In this document: positions 1,616 through 21,335 of the stretch, piece by piece
Layout of the letters: each line of letters opens with the position of its first letter
Numbering within the stretch: position 1 is the stretch's first letter
Virus record (IMG/VR): IMGVR_UViG_3300017716_001697
Coordinates: 256,001-320,000 of that record
Direction: 5' to 3' (one strand)
From: a virus
Taxonomy: Duplodnaviria > Caudoviricetes
DNA: 64,000 nucleotides
The notes under the pieces: generated by a model
What the model was told of the DNA's origin: nothing
Seen by the model: only the letters and a program-made list of their open reading frames with translations
Databases searched by the model: none
Position numbers and translations under genes: made by a program

Positions 1616-1806
1616 GCTCGCTATCACGTTAATGATAGTTTGAGCTTAGTAGGGTCTAGTTCAGGTGTTGACGTTAGGTTCTGTATCTGACACGTTGATG
1701 CTGAGGTGGTTGGCCCTACCGGACACGCATGTTAAATCACCCCACTCCTAACTAGATTGCGGCTAGTAATACAGATGACATGCAATGCTGATAGGCAAGC
1801 TATCAT
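1616..1806. ncRNA. candidate structured RNA with pseudoknots
   Basis: ORF-free; helices 1649-56/1712-19, 1673-78/1747-52, 1680-86/1769-75, 1727-32/1778-83, plus flanking hairpins. Confidence 0.5.
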
Positions 1807-1875
1807 AAATTTCTATTAATGGTTGCTCAATGATAGCTATGTGTTATAATACATACATCGCAACAAGGAGTACAT

Positions 1876-2067
1876 ATGCAAGTTCCACAAGTAGGTGACA
1901 AGTGCTGTGCAGACCCAGAGTTTGATGGCACATTCCTATACGGTGTGATCACTAAGATCGTAGACGGACTTGCGTGGTCTAACTTGCAGAAGGGTTTCTT
2001 CGGGGAGTTCTGTGGCGACATTCCTACACACAAACGTGATGGTGTGTGGGTTTATGATTCCTTCTAA
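1876..2067 (+). CDS. hypothetical protein
   Basis: promoter cassette with SD. Confidence 0.6.
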   Translation: MQVPQVGDKCCADPEFDGTFLYGVITKIVDGLAWSNLQKGFFGEFCGDIPTHKRDGVWVYDSF

Positions 2068-2312
2068 GGTGCATATGAACAACGAAGCAGTAGCAAAGAT
2101 CGTTAAGGGTATCAATCAATGGATGGCCCATGTGCGAGCTGCTGGTGACATCGCTGACATTGAGGATGCCCTCGGCGAGTACAGCGACACGATGCAACGT
2201 GCCGGTGTCACACGTAACGAGGTGTATGCGGCGTTTCGGAAACAATTTGAATAATGAGTTGACTTGGTGCCATCCTAGTGTTATAATAAACACATAGCAA
2301 CAAAGGATCATC

Positions 2313-2771
2313 ATGAAGTACTCCAAGCACATACACGTATTGCAACTGTTGTCGACAATTCCGCCTAACCCGGTTCGTGCGTATGTGAACAAACACAACC
2401 AGCCGTACCCAGCAGAATGGCTTCAACAATGCAATGATGCGTGGGATCACTTGTTCACGTACATCCATGCGAACTGGGCACGTCCTGACACAGCGATGGC
2501 TGACGGTGACATAGTCTGTAGCTACCCCACAATTACTTCTGTTCAGGGCAAGGTCGACGTGTTTGATTGTCGAGTTATGCTTGCAATGGGGCGAGACGAT
2601 CTCGAGGCTAAACTAGCGTCATTGCCTCCCTACTTCAGCGAGACGATCTTTCCGGTAGCGGTTGCTCGCTATATGCTAGGTGGCATTCATCTGAACCTTC
2701 CGATTCAGCACCGCGAGCTTACAACCTTCCACGAGTTTCACAATCGTTACGGGCGCATCATCTTGTCGTAA
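2313..2771 (+). CDS. hypothetical protein
   Basis: promoter cassette with SD. Confidence 0.65.
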   Translation: MKYSKHIHVLQLLSTIPPNPVRAYVNKHNQPYPAEWLQQCNDAWDHLFTYIHANWARPDTAMADGDIVCSYPTITSVQGKVDVFDCRVMLAMGRDDLEAKLASLPPYFSETIFPVAVARYMLGGIHLNLPIQHRELTTFHEFHNRYGRIILS

Positions 2772-2808
2772 TAATTTGTGCTATAATAAGCACAACAAGG
2801 AGCAATGC

Positions 2809-3243
2809 ATGCGTACAGTAAACGGTAATTGGAGTGCAGTGGTTAAAGAACTGCGCAGGATCGTTGTAAAGCACACTCAGTTCGAGATGCAAGAGCATGC
2901 TCACGCTTTCAGTGATGTGATGTTTACTACAGACACATTCCACCCATTTGACTGTGAAGGTGAGCGTTTGATGGAGCGTGTACTGCGTGGTATGCCAGTG
3001 CGCTGCGACTATCGCAACTGTGAGTCACTTGCTACGTGGAAGGACTTCAAGGAACAGCTCATTGATGCAGTGTACATATGGTGTGTAGAGACAGAGTATC
3101 TCATTACTGATCACTACAACGATTCGTGGAACTTCGCACCCGGTTATGTGCGCCCAGCATCCATTAAGCATGATGATTGGTTGTGGGTAGCTAACAAGGT
3201 ATTCGCTCGTGTACATCGGGCAGCATTGAAAGGTATGAAATGA
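2809..3243 (+). CDS. hypothetical protein
   Basis: promoter cassette; start moved to the ATG after SD aaggag. Confidence 0.6.
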   Translation: MRTVNGNWSAVVKELRRIVVKHTQFEMQEHAHAFSDVMFTTDTFHPFDCEGERLMERVLRGMPVRCDYRNCESLATWKDFKEQLIDAVYIWCVETEYLITDHYNDSWNFAPGYVRPASIKHDDWLWVANKVFARVHRAALKGMK

Positions 3244-3422
3244 ACAAGTATATGTGTTTCTACAACGGCAAGACTTGGGAAGTTACTGCCGACTCACTGT
3301 ATGCTGCAAAGCTGGCAGCAATTAAGATCATTTGTGCACCTCGCAAGAAAGAGCACATGATCTCAGTGGTCCTATACGAGAAGGAAGGCACGCCAGTAGT
3401 AGTTTCAACAGCATCACTTTAA
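3240..3422 (+). CDS. hypothetical protein
   Basis: ATGA overlap with previous ORF. Confidence 0.6.
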   Translation: MNKYMCFYNGKTWEVTADSLYAAKLAAIKIICAPRKKEHMISVVLYEKEGTPVVVSTASL

Positions 3423-3479
3423 TTGTTGACTTGGCTTCAGTTCTGCCATATAATACATACAAGTAACAAGGAGTAGCAG

Positions 3480-3803
3480 ATGACACAAGTAATTTTGCAC
3501 ATGTTGAAGCCAGAACTGATGATTAACATGTACACAGGCGGCATGGATAATCAGCTCGAGCAAGCCCGCAAGATGATTGCTGAAGGTGGCTACGAGGCAG
3601 TTGTTGTAGACGGCATCGGGGAAGGCAAAACACACACAGTGGAAATTATTGCCGACGAGATGTTCGATCTCACTAACAATCCAAATCGGCAGGATGAGCG
3701 CGAAGAAGCTTACGGACGTGGTCGGTCTCTTAGCGTAGGGGACATTGTTGAAGCCAACGGCGCGAAACTGTTGTGCTGCTCCTTTGGTTGGAAGGCGGTC
3801 TAG
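3480..3803 (+). CDS. hypothetical protein
   Basis: promoter cassette with SD. Confidence 0.65.
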   Translation: MTQVILHMLKPELMINMYTGGMDNQLEQARKMIAEGGYEAVVVDGIGEGKTHTVEIIADEMFDLTNNPNRQDEREEAYGRGRSLSVGDIVEANGAKLLCCSFGWKAV

Positions 3804-3804
3804 T

Positions 3805-4146
3805 ATGCAAGTCACTACATCCACTATCACACGTATTGCAGACGCAGACATCCCCGCAGGGCGTTGCCGTTGCCCGGTTTGTGATGGTACGATGGAAGTA
3901 GGTGCTAATGAGTACCAGAAGAAGTACAAGAATGTGATTGCAGGCTACAACCTCGCTAACGATACTGTGCGATGCAACAATTGTGGAGGCCAATACATGT
4001 TTGGCTCGCCTAAGGGGCATGTTAAGCCTAATGCTGCAGGAGATGGCTGCTGGCACGACTATGCTGGCACAAACGCAGGGCGCTGCCGCACTGACTACAA
4101 GTGTACGCATTGTGGCGACACATATCAGATCGATTCTGGCGATTAA
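3805..4146 (+). CDS. Cys-rich zinc-ribbon-like protein
   Basis: CPVC, CNNC, CWH, C..YKCTHC motifs. Confidence 0.55.
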   Translation: MQVTTSTITRIADADIPAGRCRCPVCDGTMEVGANEYQKKYKNVIAGYNLANDTVRCNNCGGQYMFGSPKGHVKPNAAGDGCWHDYAGTNAGRCRTDYKCTHCGDTYQIDSGD

Positions 4147-4204
4147 AGGTAGACAAGGAACCTTTTCCTTGTTATAATCAATACATCGCAACAAGGAGTA
4201 CATT

Positions 4205-4585
4205 ATGGAACTACAGTTTAACCCTAACGCTATCGCAAGCAAAGCAATTGAGAATCATTTCAATGCTTGTATATCCTCAGGCATTGACGTATGCATTACG
4301 GCAGCAGATGACAACAGTGTCACACTTGCACCATGGCGGTTCGGCAATCCACTGCCAAAGGAGTTCACACTCCGGCAGCGCGTAGCAGGCATGGGTGCAT
4401 GTGTTGGTGGATACCTGAAGATTGAGCACACAGTGAAACACGACTTGAAAGGCAAGAAGTGCTTTATCACGCTCGGTGGCACTATGAAGCAACCCACAAT
4501 CAAGATACGGTTGGATAGTGCTGCGAACCGTGGACCTAGTAAGGATGTTGCGTTGATTAGTTTCGACCCAAAGTACACCCCTTAA
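4205..4585 (+). CDS. hypothetical protein
   Basis: promoter cassette with SD. Confidence 0.65.
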   Translation: MELQFNPNAIASKAIENHFNACISSGIDVCITAADDNSVTLAPWRFGNPLPKEFTLRQRVAGMGACVGGYLKIEHTVKHDLKGKKCFITLGGTMKQPTIKIRLDSAANRGPSKDVALISFDPKYTP

Positions 4586-4646
4586 TAAAGGTTGGCAGGG
4601 AGGTAACTCCCTGTTATAATAAACACTTAGCAACAAGGAACACATC

Positions 4647-4877
4647 ATGACAACACCCACAGTTGATCAAATTGCCGACGCAGCAGAGCAGGCATGCTTC
4701 TACGTCACTCCTGCTGGGCTATGGCTCCGCATGGACTTCTGCGATATGGATGCAGGTTGCTTCCAAGCACACGACGAAGACTCCGGCGAGGAGTATCGCT
4801 TCGAGTTCGAAGAAATCAAGCTCGAGGGCAAGGAAGAGTTTCACAAACTCGTAAAAATGGAGGTACCTGCTGCTTAA
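4647..4877 (+). CDS. hypothetical protein
   Basis: promoter cassette with SD. Confidence 0.65.
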   Translation: MTTPTVDQIADAAEQACFYVTPAGLWLRMDFCDMDAGCFQAHDEDSGEEYRFEFEEIKLEGKEEFHKLVKMEVPAA

Positions 4878-4915
4878 CTGTGTTATAATAAACACTTAGC
4901 AACAAGGAGTAGGTT

Positions 4916-5224
4916 ATGACTGTAGTGGAAAAGGATTGGCACGGTAACTGGCGTGCTGAAGATCGCATTGCACTCGCCGATGGTCGCACTGCAGAAGTTG
5001 TTACACACAAGGTGTATAGCGGCTGTGTAGTCACATCTGTGCAAGTGGGCAAGCGTAGTGGGCCTGTGTTTGAGTTTACGAATGTAGACTTTCGCACTAA
5101 CCTGAAGAACACAGTGCCTAGTCGTGCAACGTCTAAGTATGTTGCAGCTCAGCATCAAGAGGTGTTGCAGGGCATCGGCCAACTGAAGCTGCAGATTGCT
5201 GCATACTACCTGACACACGCCTAA
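4916..5224 (+). CDS. hypothetical protein
   Basis: promoter cassette with SD. Confidence 0.65.
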   Translation: MTVVEKDWHGNWRAEDRIALADGRTAEVVTHKVYSGCVVTSVQVGKRSGPVFEFTNVDFRTNLKNTVPSRATSKYVAAQHQEVLQGIGQLKLQIAAYYLTHA

Positions 5225-5225
5225 C

Positions 5226-5423
5226 ATGTTACTAACAGGGATACAACTCAAGGATGTCATTGTGCTGGAAGAGCATCATGCTGTCCTCACAGAGTCTGGC
5301 TGGGTTATCCCCGAGTGGTTGGTTTACCTCCGAGAAGAAGTAACCAAGCGTGATCTCGGTCCTGCTTTACTTGATCGATTTGTTCATATAGACCAAATAA
5401 CAGTAGACCAAAAGACTGTTTGA
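5226..5423 (+). CDS. hypothetical protein
   Basis: coupled to upstream ORF. Confidence 0.5.
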   Translation: MLLTGIQLKDVIVLEEHHAVLTESGWVIPEWLVYLREEVTKRDLGPALLDRFVHIDQITVDQKTV

Positions 5424-5465
5424 CCTTATAATACATACATCGCAACACACTAAGGAAGTTTACAG

Positions 5466-6605
5466 ATGTCCCATATCCAAGTCAGCATTACAAAAGGCGT
5501 TTATCGTGGCAAAGTTATCAGCGGCGTGTATCCGTTGGTTAAGGGATTTGTTGATGGTGCCCGTGGCGGCTTTGTTACAATCAAGAACATCAATCACGAC
5601 GCAGGCACTCCAATGGTGCAACGTGTGCAAGTTGAAGCAGACGCATTCAAGCTGCTGGATGCCACAGGTGCAGACTTGCCAGCGCACATCGTTGTGCCGG
5701 GCGCAGTTGCAGCAGTAGATGCTCCAGAGACGGACTTCGAAGCAGTGTTCATGGAGTCTGAAACAGAAGACGAAGCTATGGAGCGTATTGCTTCTACGTT
5801 CGACATGCTGGATAAGATCACGGATGCGGCATCCAGCGGCATTGTGCGTGGACTCGTTGTTAGCGGCCCACCCGGCATTGGCAAAAGCTTTGGAGTTGAA
5901 AAGCAACTCGCAGCAGCTAACATGTTCCGCACGCTGGAAGGCAAGGATCCACTGTTCGAAGTTGTAAGCGGCGGCGTTAGCAGCATCGGGCTGTATCAGA
6001 AGCTGTACCACAACCGCTCTGCAAAGCAGGTGCTGGTGTTCGATGACTGCGACGGCGTGTTGTTTGAAGAAGAATGCCTTAACTTGCTGAAAGCTGCATT
6101 GAACAGCGGAGACAAGCGTCGCATTTGCTGGAACAAGGAATCGCGTGTATTGGCTGTCGAAGACATCCCTGAAGCGTTCGACTTCGAAGGCAGCATCTTG
6201 TTCTTGTCCAACATTGACTTTGATCGCAGCATTGCTAAGGGCTCGCGTATCGCTGCACACTTGTCAGCTATCATGTCACGCTGCCATTACTTGGACTTGG
6301 AGATTGGTAGCCTGCGTGACAAGCTGTTGCGTATCAAGCAGATCGTGCGCGATGGTATGTTGACACAGTTCGACTTCAGTGCACAGCAGGAAGCAGACAT
6401 TGTGGCTTTTACTACAGACAATGCAGAGTATCTGCGGGAAGTGTCACTGCGTATGGTTAAGAAGATCGCAGACTTCATGAAAGCGGACCCTGTGGGCTGG
6501 TATGAAATGGCGGAAGCTACGTGTTTGACTAAGGAAGCTAAGTTCAAGCGTCTGTTGCAACGTAAGCAGCAGGAAGCCGAGCGTCGCGGGATTGCACTAG
6601 CATAA
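5466..6605 (+). CDS. AAA+ family ATPase (phage type)
   Basis: Walker A GPPGIGKS, Walker B VLVFDDCD, sensor-like FLSN. Confidence 0.8.
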   Translation: MSHIQVSITKGVYRGKVISGVYPLVKGFVDGARGGFVTIKNINHDAGTPMVQRVQVEADAFKLLDATGADLPAHIVVPGAVAAVDAPETDFEAVFMESETEDEAMERIASTFDMLDKITDAASSGIVRGLVVSGPPGIGKSFGVEKQLAAANMFRTLEGKDPLFEVVSGGVSSIGLYQKLYHNRSAKQVLVFDDCDGVLFEEECLNLLKAALNSGDKRRICWNKESRVLAVEDIPEAFDFEGSILFLSNIDFDRSIAKGSRIAAHLSAIMSRCHYLDLEIGSLRDKLLRIKQIVRDGMLTQFDFSAQQEADIVAFTTDNAEYLREVSLRMVKKIADFMKADPVGWYEMAEATCLTKEAKFKRLLQRKQQEAERRGIALA

Positions 6606-6620
6606 CGCATGCATGTACTA

Positions 6621-6650
6621 AATAATAGGCCCTTCGGGGCCTATTATTTT
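6621..6650 (+). terminator. Rho-independent terminator
   Basis: aataataggccc-ttcg-gggcctattatt + T tract. Confidence 0.8.
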
Positions 6651-6711
6651 GATTGACACGGTAGATTGACAGTGTTATAATCTAAATGTTAGTAACAAAC
6701 CAGGAGTAATC

Positions 6712-8082
6712 ATGAAAGTTAGTCTTTTATCGGTAGTCCTTGTAGCATCTAGTATGCTACTTGGATGTGGTGGCGCTATGGAAGCCACTATCGTTGCAGC
6801 ACCGGAAGCTGTGACTCTTGCAGAAGCAGAAGAAGTGGGCGCGGAGCCATTTGGTAGTGTTGAAAGTACAGTGCTCTATATGACGCCTGCACAAGTTCGC
6901 ACACGATATGGATTCGACAGTTTGCCCAATACACCCGCTGCACAAGGCAGTGGCCAGCTGATTGCAATCATCAGCGCCTACAATAACCCGGACTTGGCTG
7001 CAAATTTGCAGGCATTCTCGGCCAAATACAACCTACCACAATGCACCACAGTGCCTACAGTATATACCCAGTTGCCTACAGGCTACACGGGGACGACTGT
7101 ATCGCATCCACCTACAGGCCGCGGGTGTACATTGCAAGTCATTAACGTGGATAGTTTTGGTCGGGTGACTAAGATGGTTCCACAAGGTGGGCCGGCAACA
7201 GCACCATGGATGATGGAATCCACTATGGACATTGAGTGGGCGCACGCAATTGCACCACAAGCAAGCATATTGGTAATTCAAGCACCCAGCATCTTTGTTG
7301 GTGCACTCGGTAATGCGGCAAAGTATGCAAGTAGCGTGGGAGCCGACGTTGTTTCAATGTCGTGGGGTGTCAATGAGACTTCACAACAATGTACACGCAA
7401 GCCCGGACAACCTACTGTGAAGTATGTTTCTACATGCGACGATGCGGCAACAGCAGCAAAATATTGGCAAACCGTGGACACTATGTTCGCTGGTTCGGCA
7501 ACATTTGTAGCGGCATCCGGCGACCGTGCAGTTCTACAGTGGCCATCCATTAGCCCTAAGGTAATGGCAGTCGGCGGCACGAATGCATATGGTCCAGCTG
7601 GCAAAGACACTGCATGGCCATTGTCAGGAGGCGGAGTTTCTAAATCGTTTCCTGCACCTAGTTGGCAAGCAAACCACATGAAGGCTGCAAACAGGAATGT
7701 ACCAGACGTATCACTTGTTGCTGGAACACCGGTGGCAGTCTACATCAAGCCAAATGCTAAGACTGGATTTGACGACTCAACTTGCGTAGCAGCGAAGGGT
7801 GAAAGTGGCTGTGGATGGTATGGTGGTGGTGGTACTAGTGCAGCGGCACCTATGTGGGCAGGCATTGTGGCAATCACTAATGCTATGCGTATTGCGGGCA
7901 GCATGAAGAGTACAGAGTTCGTTTCATCGTTATACACCAACGTCGCTAGTGTGCGCGGCACCTATGCATCTTCATTAGATGATGTTATAGTTGGAGCACA
8001 TGCTAATGAAGGATATGACATTTCGACAGGATTGGGTGTACCTAATGCCAACAACCTAATCAACTACATGGCATCACGATAG
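6712..8082 (+). CDS. S53 (sedolisin/kumamolisin-like) serine peptidase, probable lipoprotein
   Basis: signal peptide with LLGC lipobox; ESTMDIEWAHAIAP, ASGD and GGTSAAAP motifs. Confidence 0.8.
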   Translation: MKVSLLSVVLVASSMLLGCGGAMEATIVAAPEAVTLAEAEEVGAEPFGSVESTVLYMTPAQVRTRYGFDSLPNTPAAQGSGQLIAIISAYNNPDLAANLQAFSAKYNLPQCTTVPTVYTQLPTGYTGTTVSHPPTGRGCTLQVINVDSFGRVTKMVPQGGPATAPWMMESTMDIEWAHAIAPQASILVIQAPSIFVGALGNAAKYASSVGADVVSMSWGVNETSQQCTRKPGQPTVKYVSTCDDAATAAKYWQTVDTMFAGSATFVAASGDRAVLQWPSISPKVMAVGGTNAYGPAGKDTAWPLSGGGVSKSFPAPSWQANHMKAANRNVPDVSLVAGTPVAVYIKPNAKTGFDDSTCVAAKGESGCGWYGGGGTSAAAPMWAGIVAITNAMRIAGSMKSTEFVSSLYTNVASVRGTYASSLDDVIVGAHANEGYDISTGLGVPNANNLINYMASR

Positions 8083-8103
8083 TCTAAGCAACTATCTAAC
8101 AAG

Positions 8104-8126
8104 GGCGGTCTTCGGACCGCTTTTTC
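8104..8126 (+). terminator. Rho-independent terminator
   Basis: ggcggtc-ttcg-gaccgct + T run. Confidence 0.8.
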
Positions 8127-8185
8127 TTGACTATTCGTTGCGAGGCTGCTATAATGAATGCATAACTTAAACAGGAGACACATTT

Positions 8186-8431
8186 ATGTCATTCACAACC
8201 CTTACCTCTACCCAAAAGTCCTTCGTCGAGCAACATCTGCGAGGCACAGGTCGGGCATTGTCCGAAGCTCAAGCCCGCGAAACCTACGGCATCATGAATC
8301 TACGTGCTGTCGTTAGTTCAATGCGTGACTCGGGCTTAGTAGTACGCAAGCAAAAAAACACAGCTGGCCGTACTGCATATGCTATTAGCCGTAGAGACGT
8401 TGCAGGTGTTCAAAGCAAGATCTTTGCTTAA
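8186..8431 (+). CDS. small winged-helix/HTH-like DNA-binding protein
   Basis: LSEAQARETYGIMNLRAVVSSMRDSG pattern typical of small phage wHTH proteins. Confidence 0.55.
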   Translation: MSFTTLTSTQKSFVEQHLRGTGRALSEAQARETYGIMNLRAVVSSMRDSGLVVRKQKNTAGRTAYAISRRDVAGVQSKIFA

Positions 8432-8448
8432 CATCCAAAACGGGTAAT

Positions 8449-9061: not shown

Positions 9062-9096
9062 GCCGTAGCGGTAAGTACAAACAAGGCTCCCAAGCC

Positions 9097-9232
9097 TTGT
9101 TTGGGAATTGTGCCTGTATACTGAAGTCGGTCGTGAACAGCCACTAGGAAGAGTGTATCGTAGCAGATACGCGAAGAAGACTAGGCGGACTGTCGGAGAA
9201 GGCAAGCAGATGGCAGCGCAATTCCCAAACAA
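9097..9232 (+). ncRNA. candidate rod-shaped ncRNA
   Basis: 17-bp closing stem 9097-9113/9216-9232 with nested stems and purine-rich internal loops. Confidence 0.55.
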
Positions 9233-9238
9233 AGTTTA

Positions 9239-9400
9239 GCCCCTTTAGTTCAGCGGTCTAGAACGTCAGGCGAGGTGTTGATATACTAGTCAATACGCAT
9301 CAATGACATTGGGATTAACATTGCAGTGATCGGCCGGTTGCTGTGGTGCCTAGTGTGGTAAAGCTTGAAGACACTGGTTCGAATCCAGGGTGGGGTACCA
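9239..9400 (+). tRNA. tRNA-like RNA with 93-nt insertion in place of the anticodon loop (identity unassignable)
   Basis: acceptor GCCCCTT/GTGGGGT, D arm GTTC..GAAC, anticodon stem TCAGG/CTTGA, T loop GGTTCGAATCC, encoded ACCA end. Confidence 0.7.
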
Positions 9401-14306: not shown

Positions 14307-14313
14307 GTGCATT

Positions 14314-14517: not shown

Positions 14518-14523
14518 TACATT

Positions 14524-14772
14524 ATGATTACACATACATTACACAAAGACATTGTATATTCTGACAACAGTCGCATCCCTGTTGTAGTTGAGCCATGCCT
14601 TGTTGGCTGCGAAGTACGCGCCATGGGGCAGGAGTATCGCGTGGCGTGGGACGATATCCCAGACATGGAGAAACTGGCAACAATCTTCGAAGACAGCACA
14701 GTGCGAGTCTTCAAGGTTATCGTAGAACTGCTGGGTCATGCTTATCGCAACAAAGAGTTGTACGTCGAATGA
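14524..14772 (+). CDS. hypothetical protein
   Basis: ORF after a TATAAT. Confidence 0.55.
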   Translation: MITHTLHKDIVYSDNSRIPVVVEPCLVGCEVRAMGQEYRVAWDDIPDMEKLATIFEDSTVRVFKVIVELLGHAYRNKELYVE

Positions 14773-15014
14773 AATTCATACTGGCTATCTACGCTATCCT
14801 AGGTATTGCAGGGCTGTTCACTGCACACCTAGGTGTCTCTTTGCTGTGTGTACTGTGCATGGCATTCTTCTATTGGGCTGACAAGGAGATGGATAAGCAA
14901 CCTAGGCCTCCAATGACATTGAAGAGCACATTGGATGCATTGGATGAGTATTGCTGCGAGTGTTGCAATCCTAATTCTCCAAGACAGGTTTCCTTTTCAG
15001 ATTCCAAATTCTAA
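14769..15014 (+). CDS. small membrane protein
   Basis: ATGA overlap; hydrophobic N-half. Confidence 0.55.
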   Translation: MKFILAIYAILGIAGLFTAHLGVSLLCVLCMAFFYWADKEMDKQPRPPMTLKSTLDALDEYCCECCNPNSPRQVSFSDSKF

Positions 15015-15309
15015 ATTACATTCCTACGGCAGGTTCTCGGTTAGTATGCTGATCGATCGTTGACTTCTGTGCCGAGGTGTGCTATACTACGACTATGGAT
15101 TATTACGCAATCGTCTTATCGCCTGAACAGAAAGAACTCGTAGTGCGAGCAGTTGAAGTCTTCTCGCAGTTAACAGTCGGGCAGACTTTTGATCAACGCG
15201 AGGACGCCCGTAAGCTGGCACCGTTGCTACACAAGATGCATCAGCACGGCACTAACGATTTAAGCAAGCAATGATATACTCTACGCGGGGTTTGTGAAGG
15301 TAGGGTCAC

Positions 15310-15790
15310 TATAAATACAGAACACATTCAACGGTATGCTACCGCGCCTCCGGTCGCCGAGTAGCCGCTACGGTCGTTGAAGAGTGGCAGCAAGTCTATT
15401 ATGCGTAACATATGGTTAGTACCAGCGCCCACTAATAGCGTTGCTTTATAGATAATCTGATATGCTTTCACGCCGACGCATTGGCATGCAATCCCGACTA
15501 TCAGATTACCTTTTCAGATTAGGATCTGAAATTGACCTTCCTAGAGCCCGGTTGAATCTAAAAGACGCGACATACGCAGCATTTCCTGATTGTCTCGGGT
15601 GTTCAGGGCCCAGTTCAGCTCTGTGGCCTGCACGGTGTGCCCCATCTCGGATAGCTTCTCCCTGACCGCATGGCCCCACGCCGAGGATGGTAAATGCACA
15701 TGCGTATTGCCGTCGACTAAGTAAACTGTGACCATAAACCCTCCTGTTTCCGTGGCACAAGGGGCCTAAGCCCCTGTGTAGTGCATTGTA
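15310..15790 (+). ncRNA. candidate ~450-nt structured RNA behind a TATAAATA (T4-late-type) promoter
   Basis: TATAAATA 15310-17; helices 15327-33/15375-81, 15453-62/15499-508, 15513-19/15524-30; crossing helices 15603-08/15660-65 and 15642-50/15681-90. Confidence 0.5.
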
Positions 15791-15794
15791 GCAC

Positions 15795-16217
15795 TTATTT
15801 CCAGTACAGTGTTGCCTTTTTTGCGGCTTTTGCACGAGCAACCAGCGCAGTTGCATCTTCAAAGCTCATGTTCTCTGCGACAACAGTGCCGTCTGCTTTC
15901 TTGCACACGGTAAACACTGTCTGCTCCGGCACAACAACTTCGGCAGCAGCAACAGCAGCTACCTTGGGCTTGCGTCCGCCCTTCTTGTCTTCTGCACGAC
16001 CCAAGCCTTCCAACTGTGCAGCAAGCACGGGGTCCTTCTTGGCTTCCTTGAACGCATGGTTGTAATGCGTTGCGGCTGATGCAAGGCTAATGTCAAATTC
16101 AGTCATTGCGTAGCCGATAACTTCTGCACGGAAGCGTGTGTTGCCAAGCTCTGCACGCTTTGGCATGAGAGTGACGAACTGGTGATTGACGTTAACGCGG
16201 ATGCCTTTGTCTGCCAT
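15795..16217 (-). CDS. Ala/Lys-rich hypothetical protein, paralogue of 8612-9061
   Basis: SD aaggag before ATG 16217; two tandem sigma70 promoters upstream on minus strand. Confidence 0.75.
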   Translation of the reverse strand: MADKGIRVNVNHQFVTLMPKRAELGNTRFRAEVIGYAMTEFDISLASAATHYNHAFKEAKKDPVLAAQLEGLGRAEDKKGGRKPKVAAVAAAEVVVPEQTVFTVCKKADGTVVAENMSFEDATALVARAKAAKKATLYWK

Positions 16218-16375
16218 GATAAACTCCTTAGTGTGTTGCGGTAAGTGTATTGTACTGCGAAACAGTTCCAATGTCAACAACTTTTGCAACTTTATTTTGC
16301 TTTGTTGTTGATGTTGTAGTGTTCTGCATGTATTGATTATATGACGGAATTGTGCTCCAGTCAACAACTATTTCA

Positions 16376-16459
16376 ACTGTTACATCTTGTTACATCTCCG
16401 ACCCTCTGTACAGTCTCGGACCTGTTAATCAGTGGCCTTGATCATGCCTTGCGAGGCTT
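16376..16459 (-). repeat. conserved upstream element shared (inverted) with 21262-21335
   Basis: identical 19-mer tgtaacaagatgtaacagt and 16-mer gatcaaggccactgat, plus a similar gcct..aggc hairpin. Confidence 0.85.
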
Positions 16460-16523
16460 AAAATAAAGGTAGACACAGGAACCGTTCTTCGTTATAATTA
16501 ATACATCGCAACAAGGAACTAAT

Positions 16524-16697
16524 ATGCTTACAAGGTCAGAACGCAAATCGATGGCAAGTGACATTATCTCGGCCATGCGTGACGCATATGAACAGGAAGG
16601 CGTAGAGGGGGACTTTGACGACGGATATCGCCATCTCTCGGAGGATGCCACCGACGGCGAGTTGCAAGCAGACTACGACAAGTGGTGTACAAAATAA
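16524..16697 (+). CDS. acidic hypothetical protein (57 aa)
   Basis: read manually; promoter cassette with SD. Confidence 0.6.
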   Translation: MLTRSERKSMASDIISAMRDAYEQEGVEGDFDDGYRHLSEDATDGELQADYDKWCTK

Positions 16698-16754
16698 CAG
16701 TAGACAGCAGCATCCAATGCTGCTACAATAACACATCGCAACAAGGAGCACACG

Positions 16755-16952
16755 ATGGCCCGCACACCAGCAGAACGTATGGCAGAAGCAGCACGCTACA
16801 AACAGCTCACGGAGGAGGCTACAAAGCCCGCACAGCCGTCGCAGCAGCATCCTGCAGGGTACTACAGCAACCAGCGCATTACGCAGCGTAACGGTGGTGT
16901 ACGCCCTCTGTTCGTACGTGATATCGGCGGGTGCAGCGACAACTATCGCTGA
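16755..16952 (+). CDS. hypothetical protein
   Basis: promoter cassette with SD. Confidence 0.6.
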   Translation: MARTPAERMAEAARYKQLTEEATKPAQPSQQHPAGYYSNQRITQRNGGVRPLFVRDIGGCSDNYR

Positions 16953-17025
16953 GGCTTAGGCCAAATAAGTGTTGACATTCTGTTTCTTTAACGTTATAAT
17001 AAACACATAGCAACAAAGGAACTGT

Positions 17026-17235
17026 ATGTCACAACCGACAACTATTGCACAATTCGCAGAAGCTTGCAAGACGCTAACAAGTGATGAAGTGTTTGAATTC
17101 TTCGAATTCGAAATCAGTGATGCACTTCGCGATGAGATCTATAGCATGTCTCGCACATCTAGTCACGAACCATGTCGTGATGCACTCGAACAAATCGGTA
17201 AGCAGTTCAACGTTCAAAGTTTAATTGATTATTGA
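17026..17235 (+). CDS. hypothetical protein, tandem paralogue A
   Basis: FA.ACK.LTSDE...FEF.IS..LRD shared with next ORF. Confidence 0.75.
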   Translation: MSQPTTIAQFAEACKTLTSDEVFEFFEFEISDALRDEIYSMSRTSSHEPCRDALEQIGKQFNVQSLIDY

Positions 17236-17298
17236 AAATAATTGTTGACACAGTGTTTCGTTGTCGTTATAATAAACACATAGCAACAAAGGAACATC

Positions 17299-17499
17299 AT
17301 GCAAACTGTACAAGATTTCGCACTAGCTTGCAAGCATCTGACAAGCGATGAGATCTACGACTTGTTCGAGTTTGATATCTCGCAGGAGTTGCGTGACACA
17401 ATCTACGCAGAAGCCGAGATTGACAGTGCAGAACCTGTGCGTGACGCATTCAACAAGATTGGCGTGCGCTACAGTGTGCAAACGCTTGCAGATTATTGA
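17299..17499 (+). CDS. hypothetical protein, tandem paralogue B
   Basis: same motif as 17026-17235. Confidence 0.75.
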   Translation: MQTVQDFALACKHLTSDEIYDLFEFDISQELRDTIYAEAEIDSAEPVRDAFNKIGVRYSVQTLADY

Positions 17500-17559
17500 A
17501 AATAATTGTAGCACAGCTTCAAAACTGTGCTATAATTGTTGCAACAGAAGGAGTATACA

Positions 17560-17838
17560 ATGGCTAGCATCACAAAGGTAGACAAGTTGCGCATTGCAAC
17601 AGCGCTCAATAGCGAATTGATTGCGTTCGTTAATGACGGCGTGACGGCTGGTGACGGTGCACGCATTACCGTCACCAGCAATAAACTACAGCATCCTCGT
17701 GTAGATAAGAGCTGGGCGCGCAGTGCACTCGAGAGCCGGGCACTCGAACGCATCACAACTATCCGGCAGATATATGGAAGTTCTGGCGGCACCAAGCTAG
17801 GCCCGCGCCCGAAACTGCGAGATTACGTATCAAAATAA
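17560..17838 (+). CDS. hypothetical protein
   Basis: SD aaggag before ATG 17560. Confidence 0.65.
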   Translation: MASITKVDKLRIATALNSELIAFVNDGVTAGDGARITVTSNKLQHPRVDKSWARSALESRALERITTIRQIYGSSGGTKLGPRPKLRDYVSK

Positions 17839-17889
17839 GATGTAACAGTGGTTGCATTAAGTTGAAATCACTGTTACAATAACTACATA

Positions 17890-18240
17890 GCAAATTAACA
17901 AGGACACTTGTTTCTAATTCTACAGCTAGTTCCGCATCGTTTTGGGGCTGTTCAAATAATGAAAACTATGCAAGCAGGGTACTGCCGATAGTGTAGCACG
18001 TTACTGGTGCTGATGCTATCGAGAGTGCGCTGGAGTAGGTGAAGGCCTACTGTAACATCGGCCATAGAAGAGACCGTGTTACATTGACAAATCGTGGTCG
18101 CCAGCAAACTCTCCATGTAAGTGCTGTGCGCTTTGTGGGGCATGCGGATAGTGGAGAAAGCGAGTAAGGGCTGCATTAACTTTTGTCTGCCTGAGGACTA
18201 CGCTAAAGCCACCTAGCAAAAAGATCGGTGCCCCACTTTT
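17890..18240 (+). ncRNA. candidate structured RNA or long 5' leader
   Basis: follows a cassette promoter with no sizeable ORF; helices 18034-39/18046-51, 18051-57/18077-83, 18135-43/18228-36. Confidence 0.4.
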
Positions 18241-18254
18241 TTATTGAGGATAAG

Positions 18255-18473
18255 ATGGCTACGTATTCTTGCAAATGCTGTAAAGAACCCTTTGAAGCAC
18301 GTGAGGCTGATCGCAAACGCGGCTGGGCAAAGTTCTGCAGCAAGTCCTGCAAAGCAAAGAAACAGGAAGCACGTACCGGGCAGTATAAGGCATACCTCGA
18401 ACGGAAAGATACCGACTTTGACGTCGATGCCTACCACGCCGAGGATCCTGGATGGGATGCCCACAAGTTTTAG
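18255..18473 (+). CDS. zinc-finger-like protein
   Basis: CKCC..F....D..RGW.KFCSKSC. Confidence 0.65.
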   Translation: MATYSCKCCKEPFEAREADRKRGWAKFCSKSCKAKKQEARTGQYKAYLERKDTDFDVDAYHAEDPGWDAHKF

Positions 18474-18528
18474 TTGACATCAGCTTCCATCTGCGCTATA
18501 ATAAACACATAGCAACAAAGGATACAGA

Positions 18529-18831
18529 ATGAATTGGTTACCAGCCAAAGGCGAATTGTTTTATGTGCGTCACAAGCCACGTAAGATGCCTGTACGTGAT
18601 GTCGATGGCGAAGTGGTTGCAGCCGTGGACCACCAGGATGGCTCGTACCGCAACGATATCTTCCGCCTCAAGGGCAGCGATGACACAATGATTGTAGCAT
18701 ACTTCGCGTATGTGAGTGGAAGCACGTACGGTATGGAGAAGCCTCAGATGTTCCGACGCGATGAGTGGACAATCAGCCCTGTGGGACCCGAGGTGGCAGC
18801 AGCACTCAATCTGAAAGTGTCGGTTGACTGA
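18529..18831 (+). CDS. hypothetical protein
   Basis: promoter cassette with SD. Confidence 0.65.
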   Translation: MNWLPAKGELFYVRHKPRKMPVRDVDGEVVAAVDHQDGSYRNDIFRLKGSDDTMIVAYFAYVSGSTYGMEKPQMFRRDEWTISPVGPEVAAALNLKVSVD

Positions 18832-18858
18832 TTAACCCAACTACGCTATAATAAGCAT

Positions 18859-19074
18859 ATGACAAACAAACAAAAACGCATTGTAGCATTCATTTTAATG
18901 ATTGTTACGTTGATTTGCATAGCAATCCTTAGCCTCCCGTTCTACCAGACCTTAATGATGTGTTTCGGTGGCTGGCAAGTAGGGCGATGGGCTGGCGACT
19001 GGGGTCGTGCAGCGTGGCCTGATCCTGTGCCTCAGCCTACACCGTCCGACGATGACAACACGTTCGAGGGGTAG
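18859..19074 (+). CDS. small membrane protein
   Basis: N-terminal hydrophobic helix. Confidence 0.55.
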   Translation: MTNKQKRIVAFILMIVTLICIAILSLPFYQTLMMCFGGWQVGRWAGDWGRAAWPDPVPQPTPSDDDNTFEG

Positions 19075-19076
19075 TC

Positions 19077-19316
19077 ATGTTTGGTGCACAACTGCGATGC
19101 CCTACGTGCAATCAGTACAAACCTGATCGTTGCACCTGCAACAAAGACCCCTCGCTGAAGGGTGTGAAGGGCGGTAATTGCAATCGTACGGCTTGCCAGA
19201 AGCCTGGAGCACTTTGGTATAACAGTGGATCCTGGGCCTACTACTGCCGTGCATGTGCTCGTGATATCAACAAGTGCTGCCCCAAGGATGAACCGCTCTG
19301 CACAAATACTGAATAA
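19077..19316 (+). CDS. Cys-rich hypothetical protein
   Basis: CPTC, CNRTAC, YYCRAC motifs. Confidence 0.6.
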   Translation: MFGAQLRCPTCNQYKPDRCTCNKDPSLKGVKGGNCNRTACQKPGALWYNSGSWAYYCRACARDINKCCPKDEPLCTNTE

Positions 19317-19734
19317 AGCTGTAGACAGGATCCATTTTCGGTGCTATAATTAACACATAGCAAACAGGAGCACAGCATGGAACTTACCGAATTGCAGAAG
19401 ACACGCATAGCATACGCCCACTTCACGTTGGATGAGTGGAAGCTGATTGCGCGGTGCATTAGTCACACCCGTGCCGATTTGTATGGCACCAAGCAAGCAA
19501 TTGACCCGGATAAGTTGCGGGATATACTTGTAAAATTCCCATCAGCTGTGCTATAATACAGCATAGCAACAAAGGACACTGCAATGGAATTCCTAATAGG
19601 ATTGTTTATCTTCTGCATAGGGTTAGGGTTCTATACAGCCAGCATCCCAGTTGCAGCAATGGCGTTTGGCGGCGCACTAGCAGTGGTAGCGTTGTTCCAG
19701 TCCCTGCTTAACTATCTCAACAGAAGGCGTTAAC

Positions 19735-19923
19735 ATGCAAAAAGGTTTCACAATCATCGAGCTGCTGATCGTAATTGCCATCATTGGCATTATAGCAGCA
19801 GTTGGCGCAGCGGCAATCAACGGGCCTCAGACGCAGTGCATCGGTGGCTACATGTTCACCAAGAACGTTCGCACGCCTGTGCAAGTGATGGATGACAAGG
19901 GCCACGGCATTCCCTGCAAATAG
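19735..19923 (+). CDS. mini type IV pilin-like protein
   Basis: class III signal MQKG|FTIIELLIVIAIIGIIAA; two Cys in C-domain. Confidence 0.75.
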   Translation: MQKGFTIIELLIVIAIIGIIAAVGAAAINGPQTQCIGGYMFTKNVRTPVQVMDDKGHGIPCK

Positions 19924-20338
19924 TTGTTGACAGTTGGCAGAATCCTGCTATAATTAACACATAGCAAGCAAACACACAAAGGAGTTAGTTATGTTACTAG
20001 TCAGAGCTTATAATGAGCATTGCGACAAGGCAGCAGCAGAAGGATTCAAGCCCTTGCCCCGGTCGCGCTTTCTGGATGTGTTGTGGGCAATCTTTAAAGC
20101 ACGCAACGCCTAGTAACAACAAGCCCAACGTGACAGGCCGATTGCACGTTGATCCTCAACTCTTAAACATTCTTAATTAGTCCCTTAGCGAGGTGGGGCA
20201 ATAATGCAATAAGTCAAGCATATATAGAAACACATTTATAAGAGAAAGGGGCCCACATGCCCCTTTCGTCACGGCAAATATCTGTTGACACTTGGTTCCT
20301 TTGGTGCTATAATTAACACATAGCAAACAGGAGTACAC

Positions 20339-20629
20339 ATGCAAGTAGATGCAATTCTAGCAGGTTTGGCAAAGGCTCGTCAACGCTTAATGTGCATCGA
20401 TGGTGCATACACAGCAGATCAAGCGCAGCACCGCCTTAGCATTATCTCCGTCATGCGGGACTACGCACTCGAGGAAGACGGTACAGGCTTCGCTAGCTTC
20501 TGTCAACGCACCCTCGCAGGAACTGATGGCGACATCATGGTCGACCTGCTAGAGGAGTTGTACGAAGAATTGGGCAAGGACCCGGAAGTTTGTATGTGGG
20601 ATGAATTTGAAATGGAATTCCTTCAATAA
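20339..20629 (+). CDS. hypothetical protein
   Basis: promoter cassette with SD. Confidence 0.65.
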   Translation: MQVDAILAGLAKARQRLMCIDGAYTADQAQHRLSIISVMRDYALEEDGTGFASFCQRTLAGTDGDIMVDLLEELYEELGKDPEVCMWDEFEMEFLQ

Positions 20630-20882
20630 CAGTTGACAACTGCATCCAACAGTGCTATAATCATTGTAACACAAAGGCACACATGCAAACCACAAAGATC
20701 AAGAAGAAGGACCAAGAAGGAATGATTAGCTCCTTCTGGGCAATGCTCCAGGAGTTGGAGAATCAGGCAGAGAACACGCTCGACAAGCACTTCGTGGAAA
20801 AATACTACGAGCAGTGGAATCGAATCACAGGCGACAACAAGGTTGCACGTTGGAATCGATAAAGGCAGTTTAACAGATATTA

Positions 20883-20905
20883 GCGGCTAAGGCCGCTTTT
20901 ATTTT
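20883..20905 (+). terminator. Rho-independent terminator
   Basis: agcggc-taag-gccgct + T-rich tail. Confidence 0.7.
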
Positions 20906-21335
20906 GGCCATATAGTTCTCGCATAAGAGCGCGATCCTTCTTATAATCGTTGCCGAGAACTATAGCCTTAGGTGTCGCGATTCGCCGCCTAAAGAATCGC
21001 CTTAACCACAGATCCTCGGAGTTAGGGCACGCACCTAGCTGATAGCGTGCAACCTTGCCGAGGCTAATTTCATGCCACAGCCGTAGGTGTATTACACAGT
21101 GTTTATGAGCTAATTTTAGCAGGTTTAGGCAAAGGTTGCGACGATTCTTTAAGACAGATTCATTAAAGTTCTCGCAACTACTATACCGACGGCTAAGGTT
21201 GCGTGCAATAACTCCGAGACTATGTCGACAAAGGTGATGACAGATTACTCAGCGATCATACAAGCCTCGGCCAGGCGGATCAAGGCCACTGATGAGTAAG
21301 TCCACGAACCGCTGAGTGTAACAAGATGTAACAGT
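20906..21335. ncRNA. candidate ~430-nt highly structured RNA
   Basis: ORF-free; helices 20911-21/20954-64, 21015-24/21209-18, 21045-60/21190-206, 21135-41/21172-78, 20991-99/21142-50. Confidence 0.6.

What the first reader, a model, noticed from the sequence alone, without database searches (positions are those of the whole stretch)
1616..21335. A dispersed set of at least six structured non-coding elements within one phage early region
1616-1806, 9097-9232, 9239-9400, 15310-15790, 17890-18240 and 20906-21335 account for most of the large ORF-free gaps, and each shows dense pairing. Phage ORF-free gaps are usually short. Inference: an RNA-based host-takeover or anti-defence toolkit carried in the same cassette format as the protein genes.
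Basis: inference. Interest (0 to 1): 0.7.

Follow-up and report, generated by a model that had tools for sequence, protein, structure and literature searches.

The report
Three real phage RNAs, three ordinary gaps
Of six gene-free stretches in the early region of an uncultured 365-kb freshwater phage, three are real conserved folded RNAs of unknown function (one with its own promoter, one tRNA-shaped with a 92-base insert, one long hairpin), and the other three are a missed protein gene or spacers with no conserved fold.

Summary
The window is part of a 364,576-bp IMG/VR jumbo phage. Its early region is a run of about 40 promoter-leader-small-gene cassettes. The six gaps lie where stated. All but one are truly non-coding.

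Comparison with related phage contigs splits them.

- **E5 (17885-18242):** a promoter-to-terminator non-coding RNA kept in five lineages. 99% of cells pair and 9 pairs show compensatory changes. Its 3' domain is a new motif, also found behind genes in three more distant phages.
- **E3 (9239-9400):** reaches Rfam's tRNA threshold, but 92 nt replace the anticodon loop. 13 of 18 changed pairs stay paired, on the + strand only.
- **E2 (9097-9236):** a 140-nt hairpin (z -7.8) two bases upstream of E3, with compensatory changes in its stem.
- **E4:** holds a conserved minus-strand 64-aa gene. The rest shows no conserved fold.
- **E6:** is self-complementary (z -5.1), but its fold is no better kept than in coding controls, in two comparisons.
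- **E1:** is unremarkable and is absent from the nearest relative.

Only E5 has the cassette format. The anti-defence "toolkit" idea is untested. This scan has noted tRNA-shaped RNAs with replaced anticodon loops on other phage DNA before.

The parts
1611..1822 (.). E1: non-coding spacer between gene 1389-1610 and the cassette promoter at 1823. No evidence of a conserved RNA.
   Evidence: z -1.2 on the + strand and -0.3 on the - strand. It is absent from the nearest relative, which has a 135-aa gene in this slot. There is no Rfam match.
9082..9099 (+). Short hairpin after gene 8612-9061 (CAAGGC/GCCTTG). Its 3' arm overlaps the 5' arm of the E2 stem.
   Evidence: Read directly from the sequence. 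Conserved in the relative.
9097..9236 (+). E2: 140-nt irregular hairpin with a 17-19-bp basal stem, conserved internal loops and a variable tip.
   Evidence: z -7.8, and -5.3 in the relative. The stem keeps pairing through 2-3 double compensatory changes. Both versions show the same architecture despite indels of 17 and 6 nt in the tip.
9239..9400 (+). E3: tRNA-shaped RNA with acceptor, D and T arms, an encoded CCA and a 6-bp anticodon stem. A 92-nt Y-shaped insert of two hairpins replaces the anticodon loop.
   Evidence: ARAGORN in intron mode. Rfam RF00005 scores 29.5 bits against a gathering score of 29, with a 92-nt insertion. 13 of 18 changed pairs stay paired on the + strand against 2 of 13 on the - strand; controls give 0.33. 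RNAalifold reports 50 pairs, 4 with double and 9 with single consistent changes, none broken.
15275..15540 (.). E4a: conserved non-coding stretch between convergent genes. No support for a conserved fold.
   Evidence: 90% identical to the relative, with no codon periodicity. Kept-pair fraction 0.27 on the + strand and 0.18 on the - strand, at or below the coding controls (0.33). z -0.6.
15541..15735 (-). It is the second gene of a minus-strand operon with 15795-16367.
   Evidence: AGGAGG ribosome-binding site. tblastn gives 44% identity in G001 and G002, next to the orthologue of the 190-aa gene. A 64-aa minus-strand gene is called at the same place in L082.
17852..17880 (+). Cassette promoter of E5 (TTGCAT-N17-TACAAT).
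   Evidence: All five lineages have a promoter here although the -35 and spacer sequences differ.
17885..18242 (+). E5: promoter-to-terminator non-coding RNA. It comprises a 5' domain (17885-18023), an optional expansion segment (18024-18119) and a 3' domain (18130-18242) whose outer helix is followed by T6.
   Evidence: Five lineages were aligned. 68 pairs were counted, 99.4% of cells paired, and 9 pairs carry double changes against 3.2 in shuffles (0 of 500 reach the observed value); slid controls give 0-1. All 7 changed pairs stay paired against L103. The short TTG ORF is not conserved.
18130..18244 (+). 3' domain of E5 (model R1). Its core is AAGCGAGUAAGG-[hairpin]-YGAGGACUWCGC-N9-10-CUAGCRRAA, enclosed by a long helix followed by a U-run.
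   Evidence: The covariance model finds it in L080, G002 and G001, directly after the stop codons of unrelated genes. 8 of 23 pairs carry double changes and 95% of cells pair.
20882..20905 (+). Intrinsic terminator of the preceding cassette.
20906..21346 (.). E6: repeat-rich non-coding spacer between a terminator and the promoter (21347-21375) of gene 21414-22025. It is self-complementary, but its fold is not conserved.
   Evidence: z -5.1, and -2.5 in the relative. It holds a network of 11-26-nt direct and inverted repeats. The kept-pair fraction is 0.39 against relA and 0.28 against L103, against controls of 0.33 and 0.28. It has no + strand promoter. It is present in 3 of 6 lineages.

Best explanation
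The early region is a train of about 40 near-identical sigma-70-type promoter-leader cassettes driving small genes. Three of the six gaps encode conserved structured RNAs. The other three are not RNA genes by any test run here.

**E5** is a stand-alone early non-coding RNA of about 260-360 nt.
- It has the same promoter and leader as the protein cassettes.
- A hairpin sequesters the ribosome-binding-site-like AAGGA and the TTG.
- A 5'-3' helix closes a 5' domain of three hairpins.
- One site tolerates a roughly 100-nt expansion.
- The RNA ends in a conserved domain whose outer helix plus U-run is the terminator.
- In more distant relatives that 3' domain alone sits behind protein genes, so it is an independent module.
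- My inference is that it makes a stable 3' end and presents conserved loops to a protein partner.

**E2 and E3** lie inside an operon that runs from promoter 8502 through gene 8612-9061, E2, E3 and gene 9439-9660.
- E3 is a tRNA-Arg-like body whose anticodon loop is replaced by a 92-nt two-hairpin insert.
- E2 is a long hairpin ending 2 nt before E3.
- My inference is that host tRNA-processing enzymes (RNase P at the 5' end, RNase Z or E at the 3' end) cut the transcript at E3 and release a stable tRNA-scaffolded RNA.
- On the same inference, E2 (an RNase III-type stem) becomes the protective 3' end of the upstream mRNA.
- E3 most likely does not decode codons.

**E4** is a 64-aa gene plus a conserved convergent intergenic stretch. 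**E1 and E6** are untranscribed or read-through spacers. E6 is rich in short repeats.

Shown here: non-coding status, conservation, covariation, and promoter and terminator placement. Inferred: transcription, processing and any function.
For: - Cassette promoters: (61 promoter-like sites against 26.7 expected).
- Non-coding status: codon-phase test.
- E5, unit: a conserved unit in five lineages with its own promoter in each.
- E5, fold: covariation.
- E5, 3' module: found in G001, G002 and L080 after gene stops, with an outer stem and T-run.
- E5, divergence: 4%, against 18-31% at third codon positions of neighbouring genes.
- E3, family match: tRNA match at Rfam's threshold.
- E3, fold: strand-specific conservation of pairs, with G.U to Watson-Crick exchanges.
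- E3, ancestry: the best normal-length matches to its model are tRNA-Arg genes.
- E2: z-scores, compensatory changes and a shared architecture.
- Operon context: no promoter between 8530 and 9768.
- E4 gene.
- E6 and E1 negatives.
Against: - No transcript data exist for this uncultured phage, so transcription, ends and processing are unproven.
- E2 and E3 rest on only two lineages (window and relA). Several close lineages lack them at the same slot.
- The E5 and E3 structures were partly derived from the alignments on which they were counted.
- Compensation in a near-perfect inverted repeat such as E2 can also arise at the DNA level.
- E6 keeps an unusually low folding energy in two lineages, so local helices may matter even though the global fold is not kept.
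- The first 15 codons of the TTG ORF in E5 are conserved, with two synonymous changes, so a micro-peptide is not excluded.
Confidence: 0.65

Rival explanations
1. One reading: all six elements are RNAs forming a coordinated host-takeover or anti-defence toolkit, for example decoys for tRNA-cleaving defence nucleases or sponges for host proteins.
For: - Three conserved structured RNAs lie in an early, fast-evolving accessory region.
- The phage invests heavily in tRNA biology: 46 tRNAs, a tmRNA and an RtcB RNA ligase.
- The nearest cultured relative, PA5oct, expresses four ncRNAs of unknown function, two of them at high level (PMC7318152).
Against: - E4 is a protein gene.
- The E1 and E6 folds are not conserved, and neither has a promoter.
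- The elements share no sequence or motif with each other.
- No defence-related partner was found.
- E2/E3 and E6 are missing from several close lineages.
Confidence: 0.1
2. E3 is a genuine decoding tRNA gene interrupted by a non-self-splicing intron. The intron is removed by an unknown nuclease and the exons are joined by the phage's RtcB ligase.
For: - The tRNA body is complete and passes Rfam's threshold.
- The phage encodes RtcB and tolerates an intron-bearing tRNA: a group I intron in tRNA-Leu(UAA) scores 53 bits.
- Notes from this scan report families of mini-inserts in the tRNAs of other giant phages (unchecked).
Against: - No reading of the exon junction gives a 7-nt loop with U33.
- There is no bulge-helix-bulge motif.
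- The genome has no splicing endonuclease.
- The insert stacks directly on a 6-bp anticodon stem as a three-way junction, and it is itself under structural selection.
- No other copy of the insert was found in any tRNA or phage.
Confidence: 0.12
3. E5 is not a trans-acting RNA. It is either an mRNA for a 16-27-aa peptide with a long structured 3' UTR, or a purely cis-acting elaborate terminator that sets read-through into the next cassette.
For: - The leader, the AAGGA and a TTG start are invariant, and two of the first three substitutions in the ORF are synonymous.
- In G001, G002 and L080 the 3' domain is simply the terminator region of protein genes.
Against: - The ORF ends at codon 17 in two lineages and is frameshifted in a third, while the nucleotides stay conserved.
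- The AAGGA and TTG are buried in an invariant hairpin.
- The 140-nt 5' domain downstream of the ORF shows covariation. A plain terminator would not need that.
Confidence: 0.2
4. E6 acts at the DNA level: a repeat array that serves as the regulatory region of gene 21414-22025 or as another protein-binding site. Alternatively it is decaying filler left by the turnover of mobile genes at this slot.
For: - It lies between a strong terminator and the next promoter.
- It holds direct and inverted 11-26-nt repeats, and the relative differs by internal duplications.
- CCTCGG occurs 3-5 times against 0.06 expected.
- HNH homing endonuclease genes sit at the same slot in L103 and L104.
- G005 also has about 440 nt of non-coding DNA upstream of the orthologous gene.
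Against: - The 3' half diverges at about the neutral rate of 23%.
- It is absent from L104, L105 and L106 although the gene is kept.
- It has no homology to the HNH gene.
- Words shared with the G005 region are only weakly above chance.
Confidence: 0.45

Closest known systems
ncRNA001-004 of Pseudomonas phage PA5oct (Lood et al. 2020, PMC7318152)
   Same: PA5oct is the nearest cultured relative (43% aa identity on the ATPase). It has four ORF-free regions of 236-619 nt that are transcribed. Two are highly expressed from early infection onward and their function is unknown.
   Different: There is no sequence or model homology: R1 finds nothing in PA5oct. The PA5oct RNAs were defined by RNA-seq without structural analysis. 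The ones here are defined by covariation without expression data.
Canonical tRNA (Rfam RF00005) and phage-encoded tRNAs
   Same: E3 has acceptor, D and T arms, T8A9, GGTTCGAATCC and an encoded CCA. It reaches the family's gathering score.
   Different: The 7-nt anticodon loop is replaced by 92 structured nucleotides, and there is no U33 and no readable anticodon.
Bacteriophage T4 stable RNAs (species 1 and 2, rnaC/rnaD) in its tRNA cluster, and artificial 'tRNA scaffold' RNAs (recalled from my own knowledge, not checked here)
   Same: They are small stable phage RNAs of unknown function that are co-transcribed and processed with tRNAs. In the artificial scaffolds the tRNA body acts as a processing and stability handle for a foreign RNA placed in the anticodon arm.
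   Different: E3 lies among early protein genes, far from this phage's tRNA clusters. No homology was tested.
RNase III processing hairpins between cistrons of phage T7 early mRNA (recalled from my own knowledge)
   Same: E2 is an intercistronic irregular hairpin with a stem of about 20 bp and internal loops, inside an early polycistronic unit.
   Different: E2 is about twice as long and abuts a tRNA-like element. Cleavage was not tested.
Intrinsic (Rho-independent) terminators and 3'-UTR-derived small RNAs
   Same: The E5 3' domain is closed by a G+C-rich helix followed by a U-run, and it sits at the end of cassettes.
   Different: The 'loop' is a conserved, covarying domain of 85-130 nt with invariant unpaired motifs. 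No Rfam family matches it.
YrlA-type bacterial Y RNAs with Ro60/Rsr
   Same: Both are non-coding RNAs that contain a tRNA-like module.
   Different: E3 has free acceptor ends with CCA, not a closed mimic. The genome has no TROVE/Ro60 gene, and there is no Rfam Y-RNA match.

Membership tests
tRNA (RF00005) | Cloverleaf with acceptor, D and T arms scoring at or above the curated threshold | tested here: met
   29.5 bits against a gathering score of 29, model positions 1-71, in a local scan. It was missed in the whole-window scans.
tRNA (RF00005) | Seven-nucleotide anticodon loop with U33 and a readable anticodon | tested here: not met
   92 nt stand in place of the loop. ARAGORN's forced reading gives G at position 33 and a non-canonical insertion site.
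tRNA (RF00005) | Aminoacylation and decoding | not testable with these tools
   Needs biochemistry.
Group I intron in a tRNA anticodon loop | Catalytic core (P3-P9) recognised by RF00028, usually longer than 200 nt | tested here: not met
   No RF00028 match in 9050-9450 at E up to 10. As a positive control, the same phage's tRNA-Leu(UAA) intron scores 53 bits.
Archaeal-type spliced tRNA intron | Bulge-helix-bulge motif and a splicing endonuclease | tested here: not met
   The consensus fold has no such motif. The genome has no PF01974. RtcB is present.
Y RNA / YrlA with Ro60 | A Ro60 (TROVE) partner and a Ro-binding stem | tested here: not met
   No PF05731 in the genome, and no Rfam hit.
Intrinsic terminator (E5 3' end) | G+C-rich helix immediately followed by a U-run | tested here: met
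   GUGGGGCA/UGCCCCAC followed by U6. The equivalent outer helices and T-runs occur in G001, G002 and L080. The simple scan does not list it because its loop exceeds 8 nt.
Known riboswitch or ribozyme classes (Rfam 15) | Match to a curated covariance model | tested here: not met
   No match for E1, E2, E5 or E6 at relaxed thresholds.
RNase III processing site (E2) | About two helical turns of dsRNA; cleavage by RNase III | tested here: inconclusive
   The 17-19-bp stem is present and conserved. Cleavage cannot be tested here.
PA5oct ncRNAs | Homology to ncRNA001-004 | tested here: not met
   R1 finds nothing in the whole PA5oct record or in the ncRNA001/002 region. No DNA similarity to any record in the phage collection.

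The most novel reading that the evidence does not exclude
E5 and the E2-E3 pair are early phage effector RNAs. E3 would be a tRNA-scaffolded RNA that uses host tRNA-processing enzymes for maturation and then titrates or misdirects a host tRNA-binding factor, for example a tRNA-cleaving defence nuclease. E5's 3' domain would be a portable protein-binding module that the phage clade attaches either to mRNAs or to a dedicated ncRNA. Together they would make an RNA arm of host takeover in jumbo phages.
Probability: 0.12. Interest if true: 0.8.

Novelty: new variant of a known kind. Interest (0 to 1): 0.45.

Why it matters
Jumbo phages are known to transcribe ORF-free regions. PA5oct has four such RNAs, but none has a structure, a family or a function assigned.

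This work gives two concrete, comparatively supported RNA families to start from.
- One is a promoter-to-terminator early RNA with a modular, covarying fold and a portable 3' domain. It is seen as a whole unit in five lineages, and the 3' domain occurs alone in three more distant phages.
- The other is a tRNA body carrying a 92-nt structured payload inside an mRNA operon.

Both can be cloned and tested without culturing the phage, by processing assays with RNase P and RNase III, structure probing and pull-downs.

The work also removes three false leads. It shows that a low folding energy alone (E6, z -5) does not predict a conserved RNA in this repeat-rich, cassette-shuffling region.

Tried and rejected
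- **Rfam.** At gathering and relaxed thresholds over the window and locally, only the tRNA hit for E3 appeared. Default ARAGORN found nothing in the window.
- **Stop-codon recoding.** I considered it because the genome has a CUA-anticodon tRNA. The gaps hold all three stops in every + frame, and recoding does not rescue them.
- **Minus-strand frame in E6.** A 122-codon stop-free frame exists, but it has no start, odd composition, no homologue, and is broken in the relative.
- **E6 as a decayed HNH endonuclease gene.** No protein-level similarity.
- **E1 as a remnant of the relative's 135-aa gene.** No similarity.
- **tblastx of all gaps against all relatives.** Nothing.
- **DNA search of the elements in four whole related genomes.** Only promoters and generic T-arms matched.
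- **Exact-pattern scans of IMG/VR for E3, E5 and the E3 insert.** Nothing beyond G001 and G002.
- **Genome-collection pattern scan.** One hit in an archaeal MAG, which the covariance model did not confirm.
- **Metagenome scan with the SprT-like protein.** Only short, distant contigs.
- **Expression.** No RNA holder was listed for the stretch. The one run labelled RNA-Seq (X6) is flagged as probably DNA and was used only as contigs.
- **T4-type late promoter TATAAATA at 15310.** The word occurs only 21 times in the genome, and 2 of those stand near a gene start, so it is not a used promoter class.
- **Replication origin at E6 from GC skew.** No extremum there.
- **Shared words between E6 and the G005 upstream region.** Only weakly above chance.
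- **Ro60 and splicing endonuclease partners for E3.** Both absent.
- **R2 model search for other insert-bearing homologues of E3.** Only ordinary tRNAs matched.
- **Look-up of the exact product of gene 18529-18831 in public assemblies.** Not on record.

Full report
**Setting**

The window is bases 256,001-320,000 of a 364,576-bp IMG/VR phage record. Elsewhere the genome has 46 tRNAs and a tmRNA. The nearest cultured relatives are the Pseudomonas PA5oct group, at 43% aa identity on a conserved ATPase. Runs holding near-identical DNA are freshwater and wastewater metagenomes.

The first 24 kb of the window is a G+C-rich island, 48-49% against about 41% genome-wide. It is built of repeated units: TTGACA-N17-TATAAT, then AAACACATAGCAACAAAGGA, then N5-7 and ATG. 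A strict pattern finds 26 copies in the genome. A consensus scan of 1550-21500 finds 61 promoter-like sites against 26.7 expected.

**Are the six gaps real and non-coding?**

They are the large gaps of the region.

A close relative lineage, relA (L081-L088), was recovered through the protein next to E2. It is 77-95% identical in DNA across the region. In window-versus-relA alignments every gene shows strong third-position bias of substitutions. E2, E3, 15275-15540, E5 and both halves of E6 show none.

The gaps hold all three stop codons in all + frames and give no tblastx hits.

The exception is the fourth element. On the minus strand, 15541-15735 is a 64-aa gene with an AGGAGG site. It is conserved at 44% aa identity in G001 and G002, next to the orthologue of the 190-aa gene 15795-16367. 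It is also called as a gene in relA.

**Is the pairing more than chance?**

| Element | MFE z-score |
|---|---|
| E2 | -7.8 |
| E6 | -5.1 |
| E5 | -2.8 |
| E3 | -1.9 (+2.2 on the minus strand) |
| E4 | -1.7 |
| E1 | -1.2 |

Thirteen coding windows of 430 nt gave a mean of -0.05 and a minimum of -1.8.

**A conservation test with an empirical null**

I folded each element from the window sequence alone. I then asked what relA's substitutions do to the predicted pairs.

- In 101 coding control windows, 33% (sd 13%) of changed pairs stay paired. The 95th percentile is 0.56 and the maximum 0.71.
- E3 keeps 13 of 18 on the + strand and 2 of 13 on the - strand.
- E2 keeps 4 of 7, three of them by double changes.
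- The 5' part of E5 keeps 4 of 5.
- 15275-15540 keeps 0.27.
- E6 keeps 0.39, and its core 0.41.

A second, independent comparator (L103) gave E6 0.28 on the + strand and 0.31 on the - strand, against controls at 0.28. All 7 changed pairs of E5 stayed paired.

**E5 (17885-18242)**

Contigs found through the 203-aa protein downstream brought three more lineages. That makes five in all: window, relA, L103, L104 and L105.

- Each lineage has a valid promoter, although the -35 and spacer sequences differ.
- The first 57 transcribed nucleotides are invariant.
- The short TTG frame stops at codon 17 in two lineages and is frameshifted in a third, while the nucleotides remain conserved.
- One site carries a 96-nt helix-closed segment in the window, a different segment of about 100 nt in L105, and nothing in the other three.

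The RNAalifold consensus has nine helices:
- a 5'-3' closing helix;
- a hairpin that buries the AAGGA and the TTG;
- three further hairpins;
- a four-helix 3' domain.

On the MAFFT alignment 99.4% of cells pair. Nine pairs have changes on both sides, against 3.2 (sd 1.3) in shuffles (0 of 500 reach the observed value) and 0-1 when partners are slid.

A covariance model of the 3' domain (R1) finds divergent copies in L080, G002 and G001.
- In those genomes the domain follows the stop codons of unrelated genes.
- It is enclosed by a long outer helix plus a T-run.
- 8 of 23 pairs show double changes, though on a model-fitted alignment.
- The invariant unpaired motifs are GAGUAAGG, GAGGACU and CUAGCRRAA.
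- The motif is rare. Only G001 and G002 hold it in IMG/VR, PA5oct lacks it, and no Rfam family matches.

E5 diverges by 4% from relA, while third codon positions of neighbouring genes diverge by 18-31%.

**E3 (9239-9400) and E2 (9097-9236)**

E3 is called by ARAGORN only in intron mode. In a local scan it reaches Rfam's tRNA threshold, 29.5 bits against 29, with 92 nt in place of the anticodon loop.

The window and relA differ at 15% of positions.
- The anticodon-type stem changes from TCAGGC/GCTTGA to TTGAGC/GCTCGA, which is one double and two single compatible changes.
- The 13-bp helix of the insert takes four substitutions, all G.U to Watson-Crick exchanges.
- The other hairpin of the insert is rewritten but is still a hairpin.

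The G.U-rich helices and the strand asymmetry point to selection on the + strand RNA.

No reading gives U33 or a normal loop. There is no group I core, no bulge-helix-bulge motif, no splicing endonuclease and no Ro60. An RtcB ligase is encoded 50 kb away. The body most resembles tRNA-Arg genes.

E2 ends 2 nt before E3.
- Its 17-19-bp basal stem keeps pairing through two double changes and one single change, with one break.
- Its inner loops are invariant.
- Its tip differs by indels, yet both versions fold alike.

There is no promoter between 8530 and 9768. E2 and E3 therefore lie inside an operon, between gene 8612-9061 and gene 9439-9660.

The pair is present only in the window and relA. Three other close lineages have an 85-nt spacer, a NUMOD3 endonuclease gene or a plain promoter at this slot. 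The pair is an accessory insertion.

**E4, E6 and E1**

*E4.* Apart from the 64-aa gene, 15275-15540 is 90% conserved but shows no structural signal. The TATAAATA at 15310 is not a used promoter class in this genome.

*E6.*
- It lies between a strong terminator and the next promoter.
- It is a mesh of short direct and inverted repeats.
- It differs between lineages by internal duplications and deletions that destroy the longest predicted helices.
- It is present in three of six lineages.
- In L103 and L104 an HNH homing endonuclease gene sits between the E6 slot (only its promoter end is kept in L104) and the downstream gene. E6 is not a relic of that gene.

*E1.* It has no signal and is replaced by a 135-aa gene in relA.

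**Mechanism**

Non-coding status, conservation, covariation, and promoter and terminator placement are shown. Transcription, processing and function are inferred. My best reading is as follows.

- E5 is a stable early ncRNA. Its portable 3' domain forms the terminator and presents conserved loops to a protein.
- E3 is a tRNA-scaffolded RNA cut out of its operon by tRNA-processing enzymes.
- E2 serves as an RNase III-type hairpin that caps the upstream mRNA.

The toolkit or anti-defence reading is possible for these three, but nothing here tests it.

**Comparison and novelty**

PA5oct's four RNA-seq-defined ncRNAs are the closest precedent (PMC7318152), but they are not homologous to these. Earlier unchecked notes of this scan describe tRNA-shaped phage RNAs with replaced anticodon loops on other genomes. 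E3 is therefore another instance of that pattern, with its own insert. E5 and its 3' domain match nothing curated.

Noticed in passing
window 1-24000 (genome 256-280 kb): About 40 near-identical early promoter-leader cassettes (TTGACA-N17-TATAAT-AAACACATAGCAACAAAGGA-N5-7-ATG). They lie in a G+C-rich island, 48-49% against about 41% for the genome.
   Followed up: partly
genome 218339-218574 (L096:540-775), outside the window: A group I intron (RF00028, 53 bits) in tRNA-Leu(UAA). ARAGORN finds the same interrupted gene in relatives G001 and G004.
   Followed up: partly
genome 212810-213937 (L102), outside the window: A full-length RtcB RNA ligase gene (427 bits) lies between two tRNA genes. The genome has no Ro60/TROVE gene and no tRNA splicing endonuclease.
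   Followed up: partly
genome 33705-33780 and 30533-30892, outside the window: A tRNA with a CUA anticodon (amber suppressor type) and a tmRNA. Long ORFs do not suggest genome-wide stop-codon recoding.
   Followed up: partly
L103:2623-3192 and L104:4353-4922 (minus strand); P0024 lineage next to the orthologue of gene 8612-9061: Homing endonuclease genes (HNH_3, NUMOD3) occupy the same intergenic slots that hold E6 and E2/E3 in the window. These slots are insertion hot spots.
   Followed up: partly
window 18024-18119: A 96-nt helix-closed segment of E5 is flanked by a 5-nt direct repeat (AGTGC). It is absent from relA, L103, L104 and two public runs. L105 has an unrelated segment of about 100 nt at the same point.
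   Followed up: partly
window 8612-9061 and 15795-16367: These two genes share a domain (53% aa over 89 residues) that recurs several times in this genome and in every relative. It is a multi-copy early protein family without a Pfam match.
   Followed up: no
window 46151-57670 (minus strand): A single 3,839-aa ORF, followed by a 1,321-aa ORF at 57747-61712.
   Followed up: no
G002:253367-253513 (minus strand): An odd tRNA-like sequence of about 105 nt with a T arm, CCA and a long extra hairpin. ARAGORN in intron mode calls it an interrupted tRNA.
   Followed up: no
genome 53935-54026, outside the window: A 92-nt 'tRNA-Ile(TAT)' with an unusually long extra arm. Its acceptor stem (G1.U72, GCCCC/GGGGG) resembles that of E3.
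   Followed up: no
window 6712-8082: A 456-aa subtilase-type peptidase (Pfam S8, E 7e-9) stands as its own early unit. In one related contig (X6) a joint skips this gene entirely.
   Followed up: no
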